Assembly (NCBI GenBank): GCA_964016885.1
Contig: OZ024744.1
Span: 49,476,001-49,540,000, forward strand
DNA: 64,000 bases
Origin: Eledone cirrhosa
Taxonomy: Eukaryota
Direction of reading: 5' to 3'
Position 1 is the first letter of the stretch. Every line of letters begins with the position of its first letter. Shown here in pieces: positions 13,225 through 58,487 of this stretch. Made by a program: the position numbers and the translations under genes. Below the pieces are notes generated by a model. That model saw nothing but the letters and a program-made list of their open reading frames with translations, ran no database searches and was not told where the DNA came from.

Positions 13225-13392
13225 ATGTATGTATGTATATATGTATATATATATATATGTATATGTATGTGTATGTGTATGTATATGTATTATTTTTTAT
13301 AATTTTTATAATATATATATGTATATATATATATTATAAAAATTATAAAAAATAAACCAAAGAAGCCTTCAATACATCAAAAGTCTTTATTA

Positions 13393-13430
13393 GCCAACAA
13401 TGTTTCGTCCTATTAAGGACTCATCAGGGC
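13393..13430 (-). ncRNA. Minimal hammerhead ribozyme
   Basis: Exact reverse complement of 13712-13749. Confidence 0.8.
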
Positions 13431-13711
13431 AAGTAAAGCTACAAGAAGCACTATCGGCCAATACAAGCCAAAAACTCAGAAGAATATGGAGTGTACATAC
13501 ATTAAAGCATAGGAAAGATATCAAGGAAAAGTTGGCATTATACAATATTTGCAATGTGGGTTCAACATGTTAATCACTTCCTTGCTATTTGGTCTATATC
13601 TATGTTTGTAACTGCTCACTCTTAATCTTAGCCAACTTTTCCTTGATATCTTTCCTAAGCTTCTGAGTTTTTGTCTTGTATTGGCCGATAGTGCTTCTTT
13701 TAGCATTACTT

Positions 13712-14598: not shown

Positions 14599-16127
14599 AT
14601 CATCATCATCATCATCATCAACGTTTAACGTCCGTGTTCCACGCTTGCATGGGTTTGGACGGGGGTAGTCCCACTTGAGGCAAGAGTGATTGTCTTGCTC
14701 GCATAGGACTGTCTGGCAGGTTTTCTACAGTTGGATGCCCTTCCTAACACCAACCACATTTACAGTGTGGGTCTGGGAGGTTTTTACCGTGTTGCCTACA
14801 CGGCCACATTACAGTGTGGACTGTGTGTTTTTTTTGTCGTGACACCTACACGTTCTCATTTGTTTCGGCCTCGATGGCACGGCACCAACATAACTTTACA
14901 TAGAACGGGGTGGTGTGGATGGGGTGGGGGTGGTGGTGGTGGGACGGGGTGTATTTTGTTAGAGATGCCTAGTGGCTGGAGTAGGTTTTACTATATATTT
15001 AGGTAAGGCGGGTCTTCTCTGTTACTGAGTACCGCCAAAGGTCTCGGTCCAGTGACATTGTCTTGGAGAGGTGTAAGTGTGTGATGTCGGAGTTTATCAG
15101 CTCGTCCCAGGTTTTTCTAGGTCTGCCTATTCCGTGACTACCGTCTATCTTTATTGCCCTGCACTTTGTTATACAGCTATCGACTTTCATGCGCATCACG
15201 TGTCCATACCAACGTAGCCTTCTCTCGAGTAAACAACATCTGATCCCTCTTATCTCTAATTTTTTCCTTAGTTCGTTTATGCTTTGCCGTTCACGTATAT
15301 TACTGTTACACATCCAGCGGAGCATGCAAGCTTCGTTCCTCTCTAGTCTGCGTATATCCTCTGCACACAATGCCCAGGTCTCACTGCCATGCAGCATTGC
15401 TGTTCGTATGCAGGCATCGTACAACCTGCCTTTCATTTTTAGGGAGAACCCTTTAGCAGCTAATAGTGGTATAAGCTCTCTGAACTTTTTCCAACCAGTT
15501 CTGACTCTAGCTACAGTACTTTCAGAGCACCCTCCCCCACTGCTGATTTTATCGCCCAGGTAACGGAAGCTGTCCACTATTTCTATAGAACCCTCTGCGC
15601 AATTGAAAGAGCTAGTATTTTGTGGGCACTTGCTGCTACTTATTGCACCAGAACACCGGCCACATGTAAAATCTATGTTCTTAGTTAGCTTACCTGTGAT
15701 CCCACTACATCTTTTATGCACCCATACTTTGCATTTAGGACATAAAATGGAGTTTCTACCTACGCCTTTCCTACACACCGAGCACGACCATTTCCCAGAA
15801 GGGACCGCCGCCTTGTTTTCTTTCCTACAAACTAGTACTTTGGTCTTAGCCAGGTTAATTTTAAGTCCTTTTGACTCTAGGCCGTGCTTCCATGTTTGGA
15901 ATTTCTTCTCTAGCTCGGCCATTGATTCCGCTATGAGTGTCAGGTCGTCTGCGTATAGGAGTTCCCATGGGCAGCCTGTCTTGAACTCCTCTGTTATAGC
16001 CTGAAGGGCAATAATAAATAGTAGTGGGCTGAGAACAGAGCCCTGATGGACGCCAACTTTTACGCTAAACTCTTCACTATATTCGTTGTTAATTCTAACC
16101 TTGCTGACTGTTTCTTTATACATGGCT
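14599..16127 (-). mobile_element. Young 5'-truncated RTE LINE (subfamily 1)
   Basis: Open ORF 14999-16123 ([24 protein letters not shown] finger, RLRWYGHV, GRPRKTW), then 3' UTR and (GAT)n tail. Confidence 0.95.
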
Positions 16128-16434: not shown

Positions 16435-16534
16435 AAAGGGATGAAATCATACTTCCACTCGTGTAGGACACCTCGGTTATTTTTCATTTTGTAAAAAAAA
16501 CCTCACTTTCTAATATATATATATATATATATAT

Positions 16535-17105
16535 GTAAAAGGTAAACAGAAATAACAACACAATCGGTACAGTATATGGAGGGAAAGGAATATATTAGGT
16601 TAACACTTGAACTAGTAAGAAGAGGGTCTTAACGTTTCGGACACTAGTCCTTCATCAGAAGAAAGAGTGAGAAATAAGATAGATTGAAGGGTCGGGTGGG
16701 ATGGAATTGGTAAAAATATCTTTAGATAAAAATAACAGGTCCAGACATGTTGACATCTCTTGGAAAACTGTTGGTGCTGGCTTTTTGTGTATGATTTATT
16801 TTTTAGAAAAGTGGATGCAGGAGAACAGAAAAATGAAAGGTAGCAGGAGTATCGAAACCGAGTCGTATGTCCCTCAAATGTTCAGCAAAACGGTCTGCCA
16901 TACAGCATCCCGTTTGTCCGATGTATAAAGACCTACAAAGGGAACACCGGAGGGCATAGACAACGTTGGTGGATGTGCAGGTGAAAAAGTGGCGGATACG
17001 GAAAGACCCATTAGGGCCTGTGAGAGTGGTGAGGGTGGAAATGAAGGGACAATTGTTGCAGCGGGGACAAGAACAAGGATGAGAGCCGGGTGGAGTCGTG
17101 GGAGA

Positions 17106-17725: not shown

Positions 17726-17908
17726 AGCCCCTCATTCTTGCTCTCATGTTGGCATGTAAACAGAACTGCAGTTCGGTTTACATGCCAACACAAGAGCAAG
17801 AATGAGGGACTCATTCTACTGACATGGCTTTAAAAAAAGAGGCTGTTTGCATAATTGCAAACGAATCGAATATTATTATTAATATTCGAAAAACTCAGAT
17901 TACATTTA
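17726..17908 (+). mobile_element. PLE/retrozyme-like unit with 5' fold-back
   Basis: 17767-17908 matches 31733-31856; 17728-17808 is a ~40-bp-arm hairpin centred on GAACTGCAGTTC. Confidence 0.65.
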
Positions 17909-28705: not shown

Positions 28706-28772
28706 CGTAAAATAAGAAAATTTAAAAAAAAATTTTAAAAATTAACTTATATATATATATATATATATATAT

Positions 28773-30932
28773 GACGCTGATAAGAAGGTAGCTTGGAAGT
28801 GTCACTATGAAAGGCTACTAAATGAGGAGAATAAATGGGAGAAAGACAGTCTCCCCCATATCGACCCAATAGAGGGACCAGCAGTGTTAGTCGAGGGGAG
28901 TATAATAAGTAAGGCAATCAAGGATATGAAGACGGGTAAGGCGGCTGGGCCTTCGGAAATAGTTGCTGAGATGCTGAAGGCATCTGGCACGGTGGGACAC
29001 ACCATGGTCACCCGCATAGTTAACCAAGTCGTACAGAATGGGGTTGTTCCGAAGGACTGGCATAGCAGCATCATCGTTAACTGTTATAAGGGTAAAGGAG
29101 ACGCCCTAGATAGGAGTAACTATAGAGGCATTAAATTAATCGACCAGGTCATGAAGGTCACGGAAAAAGTAATAGCGCAACTAATCAGAGAGAGAATTGA
29201 CCTAGATGAAATGCAGTTCGGGTTTGTGTCAGGCAAAAGTACCACAGACGCTCTTTTCATAGTACGACAACTACCGGAGAAGTACCTAGCTAAAGGTAAA
29301 CCCCTCTACTTAGCTTTTGTCGACTTGGAGAAAGCCTTCGACAGAGTCCCCCGCTCCATTATCTGGTGGGCTCTTAGAAAACTAGGCGTTGACGAATGGC
29401 TTGTGAGGGCTATACAAGCCATGTATAAAGAAACAGTCAGCAAGGTTAGAATTAACAACGAATATAGTGAAGAGTTTAGCGTAAAAGTTGGCGTCCATCA
29501 GGGCTCTGTTCTCAGCCCACTACTATTTATTATTGCCCTTCAGGCTATAACAGAGGAGTTCAAGACAGGCTGCCCATGGGAACTCCTATACGCAGACGAC
29601 CTGACACTCATAGCGGAATCAATGGCCGAGCTAGAGAAGAAATTCCAAACATGGAAGCACGGCCTAGAGTCAAAAGGACTTAAAATTAACCTGGCTAAGA
29701 CCAAAGTACTAGTTTGTAGGAAAGAAAACAAGGCGGCGGTCCCTTCTGGGAAATGGTCGTGCTCGGTGTGTAGGAAAGGCGTAGGTAGAAACTCCATTTT
29801 ATGTCCTAAATGCAAAGTATGGGTGCATAAAAGATGTAGTGGGATCACAGGTAAGCTAACTAAGAACATAGATTTTACATGTGGCCGGTGTTCTGGTGCA
29901 ATAAGTAGCAGCAAGTGCCCACAAAATACTAGCTCTTTCAATTGCGCAGAGGGTTCTATAGAAATAGTGGACAGCTTCCGTTACCTGGGCGATAAAATCA
30001 GCAGTGGGGGAGGGTGCTCTGAAAGTACTGTAGCTAGAGTCAGAACTGGTTGGAAAAAGTTCAGAGAGCTTATACCACTATTAGCTGCTAAAGGGTTCTC
30101 CCTAAAAATGAAAGGCAGGTTGTACGATGCCTGCATACGAACAGCAATGCTGCATGGCAGTGAGACCTGAGCATTGTGTGCAGACTAGAGAGAAACGAAG
30201 CTTGCATGCTCCGCTGGATGTGTAACAGTAATATACGTGAACGGCAAAGCATAAACGAACTAAGGAAAAAATTAGAGATAAGAGGGATCAGATGTTGTTT
30301 ACTCGAGAGAAGGCTACGTTGGTATGGAGACGTGATGCGCATGAAAGTCGATAGCTGTATAACAAAGTGCAGGGCAATAAAGATAGACGGTAGTCACGGA
30401 ATAGGCAGACCTAGAAAAACCTGGGACGAGCTGATAAACTCCGACATCACACACTTACACCTCTCCAAGACAATGTCACTGGACCGAGACCTTTGGCGGT
30501 ACTCAGTAACAGAGAAGACCCGCCTTACCTAAATATATAGTAAAACCTACTCCAGCCAGTAGGCATCTCTAACAAAATACCCCCCCCCCCCCCCCACCCC
30601 ACCCCCACCCCATCCACACCACCCCGTTCTATGTAAAGTTATGTTGGTGCCACGCCATCGAGGCCGAAACAAATGAGATCGTGTAGGTGTCACGACAAAA
30701 AAACACACAGTCCACGCTGTAATGTGGCCGTGTAGGCAACACGGTAAAAACCTCCCAGACCCACACTGTAAATGTGGTTGGTGTTAGGAAGGGCATCCAA
30801 CTGTAGAAAACCTGCCAGACAGTCCTATGCGAGCAAGACAATCACTCTTGCCTCAAGTGGGACTACCCCCGTCCAAACCCATGCAAGCGTGGAACACGGA
30901 CGTTAAACGTTGATGATGATGATGATGATGAT
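28773..30932 (+). mobile_element. Young 5'-truncated RTE LINE (subfamily 1) with ~54-bp TSD
   Basis: ORFs 28884-30170 and 30176-30532 contain the full RT ([21 protein letters not shown]). A TGG>TGA change and a 13-nt GCAGA-microhomology deletion lie at ~30170-30185. TSD 28696-28749 / 30931-30985. Confidence 0.95.
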
Positions 30933-31204
30933 ATAAAAGACGTAAAATAAAAAAATTTAAAAAAAAATTTTAAAAAATTAACTTACTTAAATTTTTTTTT
31001 TTATTTTCTTATTTTACGTCTTTTATATTATTGTTCTGCATCCTCCTGCATTGAACCACCTAGGTACTATGACAAAACCTGTGTATTTGCTGGCATTAGT
31101 GTACATCTGTGCGCTTATGTTAGTAGATATATTAATTATCTATATATATATATATATATAAATATATAATATATATAAATGTAATCTGAGTTTTTCGAAT
31201 ATTA

Positions 31205-31390
31205 ATAATTGTTTCTACTTTTTGGCACAAGGCCAGCAATTACCCAGTGCATTACTGGTACTTTATTTTATCGACCCCGTAAGGATGAAAGGCAAAGTTA
31301 ACCTCGGCGGGATTTGAACTCAGAATGGCAAAGACCGTAACTCTATGCGTCAAAGCATGGCGTCCGACCCTCTACCGATACTGCCAATCC
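31205..31390 (-). mobile_element. SINE A inserted in the left inverted arm
   Basis: Full family A copy interrupting GAATATTAATAAT|AATATTTGATTCG. Confidence 0.9.
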
Positions 31391-31690
31391 AATATTTGAT
31401 TCGTTTGTAATTATGCAAACAGCCTCTTTTATAAGCCATGTCAGTAGAATGAGCCCCCTCATTCTCGCTCTTGTGTTGGCATGCAAACAGAACTGCATTA
31501 ATCGCTCAGATACAGGAAACTGACTAGCCTGTCTGCTGATATGTAAATCTGGCTGATCAGTGGGTCTGCTCATATGCAGATCTGACTGATCAGCCAGTCT
31601 GCTAATATGGAAATATGGGTGATCAGTCACTGTATATTATAGAAAATATCATATATTTTCACTAGCTCTGACAGTTGGCAGGTGAACAGT

Positions 31691-31740
31691 GAACTGTACT
31701 GATGAAGGGTGATACCCAGAAACATTAGTGTCTGCAGTTC
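31691..31740 (+). ncRNA. Type I hammerhead ribozyme, GUC site
   Basis: GAACUGUA CUGAUGA A GGGU GAU ACCC A GAAAC AUUAGU GUC UGCAGUUC: 8-bp stem I with one GU pair, cleavage predicted after 31732; the A-A closing stem II is atypical. Confidence 0.8.
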
Positions 31741-32046
31741 TGTTTACATGCTAACACAAGAGCAAGAATGACATGGCTTAAAAAAAGAGGCTGTTTGCAT
31801 AATTGCAAACGAATCAAATATTATTATTAATATTCGAAAAACTCAGATTACATTTAGCGTATTCAGCCATGCAGAGCGAAATCTTTTTATTTATTCATAT
31901 ATATATATATTAGAAAGTGAGGTTTTTCTTACAAAATGAAAAATAACCGAGGTGTCCTTCACGAGTGAAGGTATAAAGAAAAAGAGATGAAATCAAAAAT
32001 GCAACTGTAGTCTTATTTTAAAAAATATATATATATTTATTTGTTT

Positions 32047-32084
32047 CCTTTACCAGTTTCGCAGTTCTTCTGCTTTTCAAAAGG
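32047..32084 (-). ncRNA. Degenerate hammerhead relic
   Basis: CCUU UUGAAAA GCAG AAGAA CUGC GAAAC UG GUA AAGG: stems intact, two core mismatches. Confidence 0.5.
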
Positions 32085-32119
32085 TGAGTTGAGATGGAGG
32101 GTCTGTGGTTTTTCTCACA

Positions 32120-32155
<36 letters not shown>

Positions 32156-56428: not shown

Positions 56429-58487
56429 TATCATCATCATCACCGTTTTACGTCCGTTCTTCCACGCTAGCATGGGTTAGACGGGTTGTCCGGTTGTGTG
56501 CAGTGTCTGGTCGGCTGACCATGCCTTGCTCATACAGGAACTGATCTGGCTTGATTTCTACAGCTGGATGCCCTTCCTAACACCAACCTCATTTACAGTG
56601 AGTGCTGGGTGCTTTTTCGTGGCGCCTACACGTCCACTTTACAGTGTGGGCTGGGTGCTTTTTTGCCGTGGCACCTCCACGACCACCTTGCGGTGGGGGG
56701 TGTGGGGGCATATTGTTTATATGCTTCAGCATGTACCCATGGGAGTTCGGGTACTCTGTATTACTGCGTGATGCCAGAATTCACGGTCGTGTGTCATTGT
56801 CTTTGAGAGGTGTAGTTGGGTAAGGTCGGCTTTTATCACCTCATCCCAGGTCATCTTGGGTCTCCCCACTCCGCGGTTTCCATCAACTTCTAGTGCTCTG
56901 CACCTTTTTATGCAGCTGTCATCCTTCATACGCATCACATGTCCATACCAGCGCAACCGCCTCTCCTGCACACAGCATTTGATTCCTCTTATGCTCAGTC
57001 TCTCTCTCAATTCATTTATGCTTTGTCGTTCACATATATTACTGTTACACATCCATCGGAGCATGCAGGCTTCGTTTCTCTCTAATCTACGTAAGTCTTC
57101 CACCTTCAGCGCCCAGGTCTCACTACCATGCAACATCGCTGTTCGGATACACGCATCATACAGTCTGCCTTTCATTCTGAGGGAGAAGCCTTTTGCAGCT
57201 AGCAGTGGTAGTAGTTCCCTAAACTTCTTCCATCCTGTTCTTACCCTAGTTATTGTACTTTCTGAACACCCACCTCCGTTGCTAATTCGGTCACCTAGGT
57301 AGCAGAAGCTGTCTACTGTTTCTACAGGGCCCTCCCAGAGATTGGTGGTACTTGTTTCCTGTGGCTGTTTGCTGCTTGCTGTTTCAGCACAGCTGCTGCA
57401 TGTGAATCCTACATTCTTAATTAAGCTTCCTGAGATCCCGCTACATCTCTTGTGTACCCATTGTTTGCATTTGGGGCAGAGAATGGAGTTCCTACCTACA
57501 CCTTTCCTACATACTGAGCAAGGCCATTTCCCTGAGGGGATCTGGGTTCTGTTTTCTCGTCTATTTACAAGGACCTTAGTCTTTGTCATGTTGACTTTGA
57601 GACCCTTTCTTTCTAGTCCCTGCTTCCAGGTTTGGAATTTATTCTCTAGTTCTACCATAGATTCAGCTATGAGTGCGAGGTCATCAGCATACAGGAGTTC
57701 CCATGGGCATCCGGTCTTAAACTCCTCCGTTATTGCCTGCAGGACTATGATGAACAGGAGAGGGCTAAGAACAGAGCCCTGGTGGACCTCAACCTGTACG
57801 CTAAATTCCTCGCTATACTCATTGCTAATCCTAACTTTGCTGACTGCTCCCCTATACATGGCTTGTACCGCTTTCACAAGCCATTCATCTACTCCTAGTT
57901 TTCTAAGAGCCCACCAGATTACCGCACGTGGAACTCTGTCAAAGGCTTTCTCAAGGTCGACAAATGCCAAGTAGAGTGGCTTACTTTTAGCTAGGTACTT
58001 TTCCTGTAATTGCCTCACAAGGAAGAGGGCATCAGTGGTGCCTCTTCCTGGTACAAACCCAAATTGCATCTCGTCTATTTTCACCCGGTCCCTAATCAGC
58101 TGTGCTATAACTCTTTCTGTTACTTTCATGACCTGGTCCATCAACTTTATACTTCTATAGTTTCCTCTATCTAGTGCATCGCCTTTACCTTTGTAGCAGT
58201 TGACAATGATGCTACTGCACCAATCTTTTGGTATGGCCCCTTCTAGTATTACCTGGTTAACGATACGTGTGGTTATAGTGTGACCTACAGACCCAGATGC
58301 CTTCAGCATCTCGGCAGCTATCCCCGATCGACCGGTTGCCTTCCCCATCTTCATATCTCTGATTGCCTTACTTACTACGCTGCCGCTGACTTGTACTGCT
58401 GGTCCCTCTATAGGGTCTACTTGGGTAGGGTCTCTTCTTCCCTTGCATTCTCCTCATTTAGTAATCTATCATAATGACTCTTCCGTG
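56429..58487 (-). mobile_element. RTE LINE subfamily 2, 5'-truncated, with an open 542-aa RT-PHD ORF
   Basis: ORF 56726-58354 has the complete RT motifs, a PHD finger at 57389-57520 and GRPKMTW, then the 3' UTR and (GAT)n. Confidence 0.95.

What the first reader, a model, noticed from the sequence alone, without database searches (positions are those of the whole stretch)
31176..31856. Element copies start exactly at a predicted hammerhead cleavage site
Seen: the hammerhead at 31691-31740 should cut after GUC (31732), leaving a 5' end UGCAGUUC. The inverted arm stops matching exactly at GAACTGCA (31490-31497, followed by TTA rather than GAC), and the separate copy at 17767 also starts at TGCAGTTC. 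Both shorter copies also end at the same ACATTTA next to a TA tract (17908; 31176 on the minus strand), defining a ~142-nt unit. Established: Penelope-like elements and retrozymes carry minimal hammerheads. Inference: self-cleavage defined the RNA that was reverse transcribed, so this is a fossil record of in vivo activity of a small non-coding, TA-targeting mobile unit.
Basis: partly seen in the sequence, partly recalled or inferred. Interest (0 to 1): 0.8.

Follow-up and report, generated by a model that had tools for sequence, protein, structure and literature searches.

The report
Two-armed hammerhead retroelement, faint cleavage trace
This is one head-to-head insertion of an abundant 441-base non-coding repeat that carries a predicted hammerhead ribozyme and is likely copied by Penelope-like enzymes; most copies run straight through the predicted cut site and only a few per cent stop there, a faint and unproven trace of cutting in living cells.

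Summary
The coordinates are right but the 142-nt unit is not. 31176-31890 is one head-to-head insertion of a ~441-nt non-coding repeat (about 10,000 arms) with a type I hammerhead. It has Penelope-like hallmarks: TA targets, partial tandems and two 3' ends. In 49 of 53 classifiable inverted pairs one arm ends at ACATTTA and the other carries a ~35-nt tail. The 17767 copy is half of a fold-back at CTGCAG, and the 31497 joint has 2-nt microhomology. Copy 5' ends scatter over 800 nt, and 67 of 84 arms reaching +20 read through the cut. A small excess remains: breaks at the cut 85, versus 41 at +7 and 17 at -6 (about 2,900 copies each). A fitted wall falls exactly on the cut, and an autonomous family shows 42:21:5. 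A hairpin base and a palindrome at the same spot are unexcluded rivals. No RNA data; cleavage is untested. The scan noted a similar mild excess in two other genomes. Verdict: new member of the animal retrozyme / non-autonomous Penelope-like kind.

The parts
31176..31209 (-). Left (inverted) arm, 3' piece: unit positions +109 to +142, ending at the short 3' end beside a TA tract
31210..31390 (-). Unrelated 181-nt repeat inserted into the left arm at the ATT run (SINE-like; label recalled, not tested)
   Evidence: six or more other copies in the window; edges
31391..31497 (-). Left arm, 5' piece: unit positions +1 to +108; its 5' end is at the predicted cut, give or take 2 nt
31496..31497 (.). 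Head-to-head joint; the two bases are shared by both arms (microhomology)
   Evidence: alignment to the L013 monomer
31496..31856 (+). Right (direct) arm: starts 237 nt upstream of the cut, runs through the intact hammerhead, has a 17-nt deletion, reaches +142
31665..31763 (+). Predicted type I hammerhead with long bulged helix I; core from 31699; helix II of 4 bp flanked by one extra A on each side; 3-bp, near-palindromic helix III; predicted cut after 31732
31857..31890 (+). Tail: ~34-nt extension that is also the start of the next unit in tandem copies
17726..17770 (-). Short left arm (+1 to +45) of the second insertion
17766..17771 (.). Palindrome CTGCAG shared by both arms of the fold-back
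17767..17908 (+). Right arm (+1 to +142) of the second insertion, ending at the short 3' end beside a TA tract

Best explanation
The locus is one head-to-head insertion of a 441-nt non-coding, hammerhead-bearing repeat that is likely mobilised in trans by a Penelope-like reverse transcriptase-endonuclease, mostly from RNA that is intact across the predicted cut and likely, in a few per cent of arms, from RNA already cut there. Shown: the unit length, partial tandems, TA-type flanks, two 3' ends, the one-short-one-tailed rule for inverted pairs, scattered 5' ends and a small excess at the cut. Inferred: the enzyme nicks both strands of a TA tract and primes two cDNAs, one from each of two adjacent internal start sites (+142 and about +160 to +190); each cDNA stops at a variable point and the two ends are joined through short microhomologies. 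Inferred: read-through templates are uncut multimers or re-ligated circles; these data cannot tell which. Inferred: arms that stop at +1, or a few bases short of it, ran off a self-cleaved 5' end. Untested: cleavage, transcription, circles and the identity of the partner enzyme.
For: Unit of 441 nt with two complete hammerheads in tandem; 33 of 235 mapped arms exceed one unit and continue into the previous unit. 72 of 142 loci are head-to-head; 49 of 53 with both 3' ends classed have one short and one tailed end, p=7e-11. Microsatellite within 25 nt of 102 of 112 short and 76 of 93 tailed ends. Five common helix I polymorphisms all keep pairing; core intact in 73 of 108 full copies. Circular fold z=-6.0 against 40 shuffles. 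Breaks at +1/+7/-6: 35/20/11 and 50/21/6 in the two spelling groups; pooled odds 5.0 versus -6 and 2.4 versus +7. Best single wall at the cut in 57 close joints, with about 7-fold fewer ends beyond it. An autonomous family gives 42/21/5 of about 6,800, including a blunt fold-back with both arms at +1 and jumps from +1 to a downstream site. RT plus GIY-YIG frames up to 938 aa are present in the genome.
Against: No autonomous element with sequence similarity to the unit among 50 GIY-YIG loci. The predicted inactive fold is 6.2 kcal/mol more stable than the active monomer fold, and 101 of 108 copies carry an extra A between helix II and GAAA, so activity is uncertain. A 9.9 kcal/mol hairpin ends 2 nt before the cut and CTGCAG spans it. 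Pile-ups of like size lie at +41 to +60 and -240 to -279. An extra spike fits better at +9 than at +1, and a slope with a step at +11 fits as well as the wall. In PMC11167929 hammerhead mutants inserted normally in vitro and no RNA reads ended at the cut. Palindromic helix III may depress the -6 control, above all in the autonomous family.
Confidence: 0.6

Rival explanations
1. Same element and same insertion route, but cleavage leaves no genomic trace: the excess near +1 comes from the enzyme pausing in helix I and at the base of the alternative hairpin, plus joining through the CTGCAG palindrome.
For: The hairpin base lies 2 nt from the cut; about 10 of the 18 true ends read, and many of the 26, are fold-backs; another hairpin (+33 to +51) has its own pile-up, 17 of 108; a +9 spike outscores a +1 spike; cleavage was dispensable in vitro for the anole element.
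Against: The wall persists with microhomology in the model and is worse one base to either side (327.6 and 335.0 versus 324.3); 7 close joints end at +1 with no direct overlap (my reading); an autonomous family with a different fold and no palindrome across the cut shows the same order.
Confidence: 0.28
2. The unit is only the terminal repeat of a longer autonomous Penelope-like element, and these are its truncated copies.
For: Hammerheads lie in terminal repeats (PMC4209133); retrozymes resemble terminal repeats in Xenopus (10.64898/2026.07.22.740005).
Against: Long arms continue into the preceding unit, not into coding sequence; upstream flanks of non-jointed arms share only short pieces, seemingly other repeats; no match to 50 GIY-YIG loci except independent neighbouring copies. 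The sample is 50 of 150 scored matches from 10,596 candidates, so a rare parent could be missed.
Confidence: 0.06
3. One reading: a 142-nt mobile unit whose 5' end is set by self-cleavage.
For: Two window arms span exactly +1 to +142; a small genome-wide excess at +1 exists.
Against: 1167 of 1467 matches keep GTC upstream; 2 of 94 anchored arms map to exactly +1; 67 of 84 read through; many arms end in the tail, not at +142.
Confidence: 0.03
4. A miniature inverted-repeat DNA transposon with terminal inverted repeats at 31176 and 31856.
For: The outer 34 nt are perfect inverted repeats beside TA.
Against: Arm lengths and joints differ at every locus, 70 of 142 loci have no head-to-head joint, and the two ends are asymmetric by a tail.
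Confidence: 0.02

Closest known systems
Animal non-LTR retrozymes (Cervera and de la Pena 2020, PMC7229834; Li, Clavereau and Pollet 2026, 10.64898/2026.07.22.740005)
   Same: Non-coding unit of a few hundred bases with one type I hammerhead per unit, tandem copies, low GC, strongly self-paired predicted circle.
   Different: Mostly dispersed truncated arms; the longest stretch seen is 877 nt, under two units. Expression, cleavage and circles are untested. Insertions show Penelope-like tails and inversions, which the parts of those papers I read propose but do not show.
Endonuclease-bearing Penelope-like elements: inverted 5'-truncated copy, tail at one end, microsatellite bias (Craig et al. 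2021, PMC8557442); two internal start sites (Frangieh et al. 2024, PMC11167929)
   Same: Head-to-head arms, partial tandems, ~35-nt tail on one arm, two adjacent 3' ends, TA targets, hammerhead upstream of the 3' ends.
   Different: No reading frame, and no sequence-related autonomous parent was found. The hammerhead has a long bulged helix I rather than the 4-5 bp of minimal forms.
R2 retrotransposon 5' ribozyme (Eickbush, Burke and Eickbush 2013, PMC3774820, abstract only)
   Same: Precedent for a self-cleavage site that shapes 5' junctions, with chance microhomology at the junction.
   Different: HDV-like ribozyme that defines the 5' end of full-length copies; here the cut marks only a small minority of ends.

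Membership tests
Type I hammerhead ribozyme | Core CUGANGA, GAAA and UH joined by three helices | tested here: met
   core intact in 73 of 108 copies
Type I hammerhead ribozyme | G10.1-C11.1 pair directly followed by G12 | tested here: inconclusive
   G-C in 89 of 108 copies, with the known extra base after A9 but also an extra A before G12 in 101 of 108
Type I hammerhead ribozyme | Self-cleavage | not testable with these tools
   active monomer fold -36.2 versus -42.4 kcal/mol; helix III self-duplex -10.2
Non-LTR retrozyme | Non-coding tandem unit of about 150-450 nt with a complete hammerhead in at least two consecutive units | tested here: met
   441-nt unit, L013; further dimers among L311-L340
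Non-LTR retrozyme | Strongly self-paired monomer | tested here: met
   circular fold -127.7 kcal/mol, z=-6.0; internal inverted repeats contribute
Non-LTR retrozyme | Expressed as linear and circular RNA | not testable with these tools
   no RNA holder listed
Penelope-like insertion signature | Adjacent inverted 5'-truncated copy | tested here: met
   72 of 142 loci
Penelope-like insertion signature | 30-40-bp tail at one end only | tested here: met
   49 of 53 pairs
Penelope-like insertion signature | Microsatellite (TA) target bias | tested here: met
   178 of 205 classed 3' ends; no background rate measured in this microsatellite-rich genome
Autonomous Penelope-like element | RT plus GIY-YIG reading frame attached to the repeat | tested here: not met

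The most novel reading that the evidence does not exclude
Penelope-like insertions keep a countable record of hammerhead cleavage in the germ line: a few per cent of arms, in both a retrozyme-type family and an autonomous family, were copied from RNA cut exactly at the ribozyme site, while the rest came from uncut or re-ligated circular RNA; and each inverted insertion is made by two enzymes priming from the two start sites on opposite strands. This would make the in vivo role of these ribozymes measurable from genomes alone and would show directly that an animal retrozyme is inserted by Penelope-like machinery.
Probability: 0.4. Interest if true: 0.62.

Novelty: new member of a known kind. 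Interest (0 to 1): 0.4.

Why it matters
The role of hammerheads in Penelope-like elements is described as unclear (PMC8557442), and the one reconstituted element did not need cleavage (PMC11167929). A family of about 10,000 arms gives numbers: cleavage does not define the copied RNA, but a small wall at the cut exists and recurs in a second family. The family also shows a retrozyme-type unit with the full Penelope-like insertion signature, a link that earlier papers inferred from co-occurrence and sequence similarity. The 49-of-53 rule is a simple prediction for in vitro work on how inverted insertions form.

Tried and rejected
Rfam scan: no hammerhead row at 31691-31740 among the 150 rows shown. 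RNA evidence: no RNA holder listed, which says nothing about expression. Contigs of two runs of one sample laid on 31380-31900 are short and none spans the stretch, so the locus joint was not independently checked. Autonomous partner: none found by BLAST or local alignment among 30 top GIY-YIG loci and 20 loci picked for long frames. Co-location with the autonomous 3' end at 31911: about 12 of some 140 family loci hold it, near the window's own rate of 2 in 64 kb, so no enrichment. Target-site duplication of TGCA around 31498-31732: rejected, since that stretch is the family's own upstream sequence. Circle read once round: not supported, since short-ended arms pile up at unit positions 176-196 rather than 143. 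Subfamily match between opposite arms: 7 of 15 alike versus 19% by chance, too few to say whether one or two RNAs are used. Errors caught: helix III was mis-registered; one search pooled joint classes wrongly. Literature searches listed no paper whose title or abstract start reports Penelope-like 5' ends at the hammerhead cut; subscription papers and all supplements were unseen.

Full report
Observation. The sequence features are at the stated coordinates. The hammerhead core starts at 31699 and the predicted cut follows 31732. Helix I is long and bulged (31665-31763), helix II has 4 bp with one extra A on each side, and helix III has 3 bp and is self-complementary when G-U pairs are allowed (self-duplex -10.2 kcal/mol). 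The left arm's end at 31497 shares two bases with the start of the right arm. The 17767 copy is the right half of a fold-back whose 45-nt left arm meets it in the palindrome CTGCAG.

The family. Positions are counted from the first base after the cut (+1). A tandem locus gives a 441-nt unit, cut site to cut site (L013). An exact 22-mer at the 3' end occurs 4,100 times; 37 of 95 independently fetched arms hold it exactly, which suggests about 10,500 arms. 3' ends cluster at about +142 and at +160 to +195. The stretch between them is the start of the next unit in tandem copies, which matches the tail described for Penelope-like elements (PMC8557442, passages) and the two internal start sites shown in vitro for an anole element (PMC11167929, parts 1-2 of 4). 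Of 142 distinct loci, 72 have a head-to-head joint. Both 3' ends could be classed in 53 of these (19 left out because one end was broken or elsewhere): 49 have one short and one tailed end, 2 two short, 2 two tailed (p=7e-11 against a half). The window locus follows the rule. 33 of 235 mapped arms exceed one unit; the longest among the 30 best hits to a 711-nt query is 877 nt, so no long arrays were seen.

Is the hammerhead real? In 108 full copies the core is intact in 73. Five common variants in helix I (positions -36, -40, -47, -49/+13, -50/+14) all keep pairing, while one common variant at the base of helix II (12 copies) breaks a pair. The unit folds as a circle far more stably than shuffles (z=-6.0, 40 shuffles). 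Against activity: the inactive fold is predicted 6.2 kcal/mol more stable, and 101 of 108 copies have an extra A between helix II and GAAA, a feature not described in the half of PMC4209133 that I read (parts 1-2 of 4). That paper reports low activity for such ribozymes, and the 2026 preprint found cleavage in 1 of 9 dimers (parts 1 and 3 of 5).

Of 1,467 exact matches to +1..+20 in one spelling group, 1,167 are preceded by GTC. Of the first 100 listed, 20 are not; I read all 20 and about 5 are true ends within 2 nt of the cut, the rest substitutions or internal deletions. In loci chosen on the 3' end only (99 of the first 100 rows), 2 of 94 anchored arms map to exactly +1. Pooling partner arms gives 121 arms with ends from +128 to -671; arms that seemed to end at +100 to +111, where an unrelated repeat often splits the unit, were left out and their number was not printed. 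Ends per 20 nt: 17 of 108 at +41..+60, 7 of 91 at +21..+40, 17 of 84 at +1..+20, 5 of 67 at -19..0, and 9 of 28 over -240..-279. So 67 of 84 arms (80%) cross the cut, and the 142-nt unit is refuted.

What survives. The drop across the cut is modest in that sample (p=0.036). Genome-wide patterns that demand three mismatches just upstream of a 20-mer count breaks at a site. At +1, +7 and -6 they gave 35, 20 and 11 in the first spelling group (denominator 1,467) and 50, 21 and 6 in the second (denominator 1,430). Control denominators were not counted but scaled from exact-match rates in held loci. Pooled odds are 5.0 against -6 and 2.4 against +7. I read 30 of the 35 (18 true ends, 10 internal indels, 2 unclear; one is the window's own copy) and 30 of the 50 (26 true ends, 4 indels or duplications); control rows were seen only as short matched strings. 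Correcting for indels and for the pattern catching under half of random flanks gives roughly 2% and 5% of arms ending at the cut (inference). In the 121-arm sample ends at -2..+6 fell in 9 of 51 arms of two subfamilies and 0 of 33 others (p=0.01, post hoc).

Close joints. Joints with both arms ending near the cut number 69 with a 4-34-nt gap and 14 with a 35-65-nt gap; a like pattern upstream of the core gave 29, of which about 9 belong to this family. I modelled 57 of the 64 listed joints (7 complex or unrelated left out; positions hand-corrected) with weights for microhomology and symmetry. A step fits far better than none (324.3 versus 352.3 negative log-likelihood) or a slope (337.1). The best single step is exactly at the cut (327.6 and 335.0 one base to either side), with a 0.14-fold rate beyond. 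An added spike at +1 is 2.65-fold (gain 3.1), but a spike at +9 gains more (5.8), and a slope with a reverse step at +11 fits equally (323.9).

Replicate. An autonomous family with RT, a CxxxxCxxC linker, GIY-YIG and a minimal hammerhead (L294) gave 42, 21 and 5 breaks at +1, +7 and -6 among about 6,800 matches (control denominators were equal in a small sample, 9/9/9, and 12/14/7 in another). Of 20 loci read, 4 are indels or small duplications; one pair is a blunt fold-back with both arms at +1, and 5 rows (4 loci) jump from +1 to a downstream site with 1 nt of homology. A perfect palindrome just upstream of this cut may depress the -6 control.

Rival for the excess. In the 441-nt family the core can fold into a hairpin (-9.9 kcal/mol) whose base is 2 nt from the cut, helix I ends at the cut by definition, and CTGCAG spans it. 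A pausing enzyme plus palindrome joining predicts a similar picture without cleavage. The replicate and the exact position of the wall favour cleavage, but do not settle it.

Partner. GIY-YIG matches are abundant (150 scored of 10,596 candidates), with RT plus GIY-YIG frames up to 938 aa. The linker is the one described for the Neptune and Nematis clades and suggested to favour microsatellites; clade was not tested by a tree. None of 50 loci shares sequence with the unit beyond independent neighbouring copies. The partner is therefore inferred, not found.

Comparison and verdict. It works like a Penelope-like insertion and meets the sequence definition of an animal non-LTR retrozyme (PMC7229834, part 2 of 6 and passages; preprint); expression and cleavage cannot be tested here. 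R2 is the precedent for a ribozyme that shapes 5' junctions (PMC3774820, abstract). Seven searches listed no report of Penelope-like 5' ends at the hammerhead cut; supplements were not read and could hold such data. Two earlier notes of this scan describe a similar mild excess in other genomes; I saw them after my analysis and did not check their data. The finding is a new member of a known kind, with a small, replicated, unproven trace of cleavage.

Noticed in passing
window 31911-32123 (- strand); second fragment 16449-16537: 3' end of an autonomous RT plus GIY-YIG element (91% to L291, 938-aa frame, CxxxxCxxC linker) sits in the same TA tract, end to end with the finding. No hammerhead core was found on that family's coding strand in L291.
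   Followed up: partly
window 31210-31390; many loci: An unrelated SINE-like repeat splits the unit at the ATT run (+105 to +125) here and apparently in many other copies, a recurrent insertion hot spot.
   Followed up: partly
window 13373-13443 (-) and 13715 (+); 16658 (-), 46049 (-); 52569 (+): Other hammerhead-like motifs of different families, including an opposite-strand pair near 13.4-13.7 kb (Rfam HH9 28.5 bits, below its cut-off).
   Followed up: no
G000 loci L272-L283: A second repeat family with CTGATGAAG shows the same close head-to-head joints (about 17 of 29 rows); it does not align to the 441-nt unit and its full core was not found by my pattern.
   Followed up: partly
unit positions 172-196: A second pile-up of 5' ends lies in and just after the T run that follows the tail; four copies start at the same base. 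It could be a transcription start, collision with the second start site, or T-rich microhomology.
   Followed up: partly
L271:1000-1190: A divergent copy with a two-sided change in helix I next to the cut, a single compensatory example.
   Followed up: no
window 28746-30170, 14999-16126, 56726-58453: Long reading frames that look like reverse transcriptases of non-LTR retrotransposons (read by eye; not scanned).
   Followed up: no
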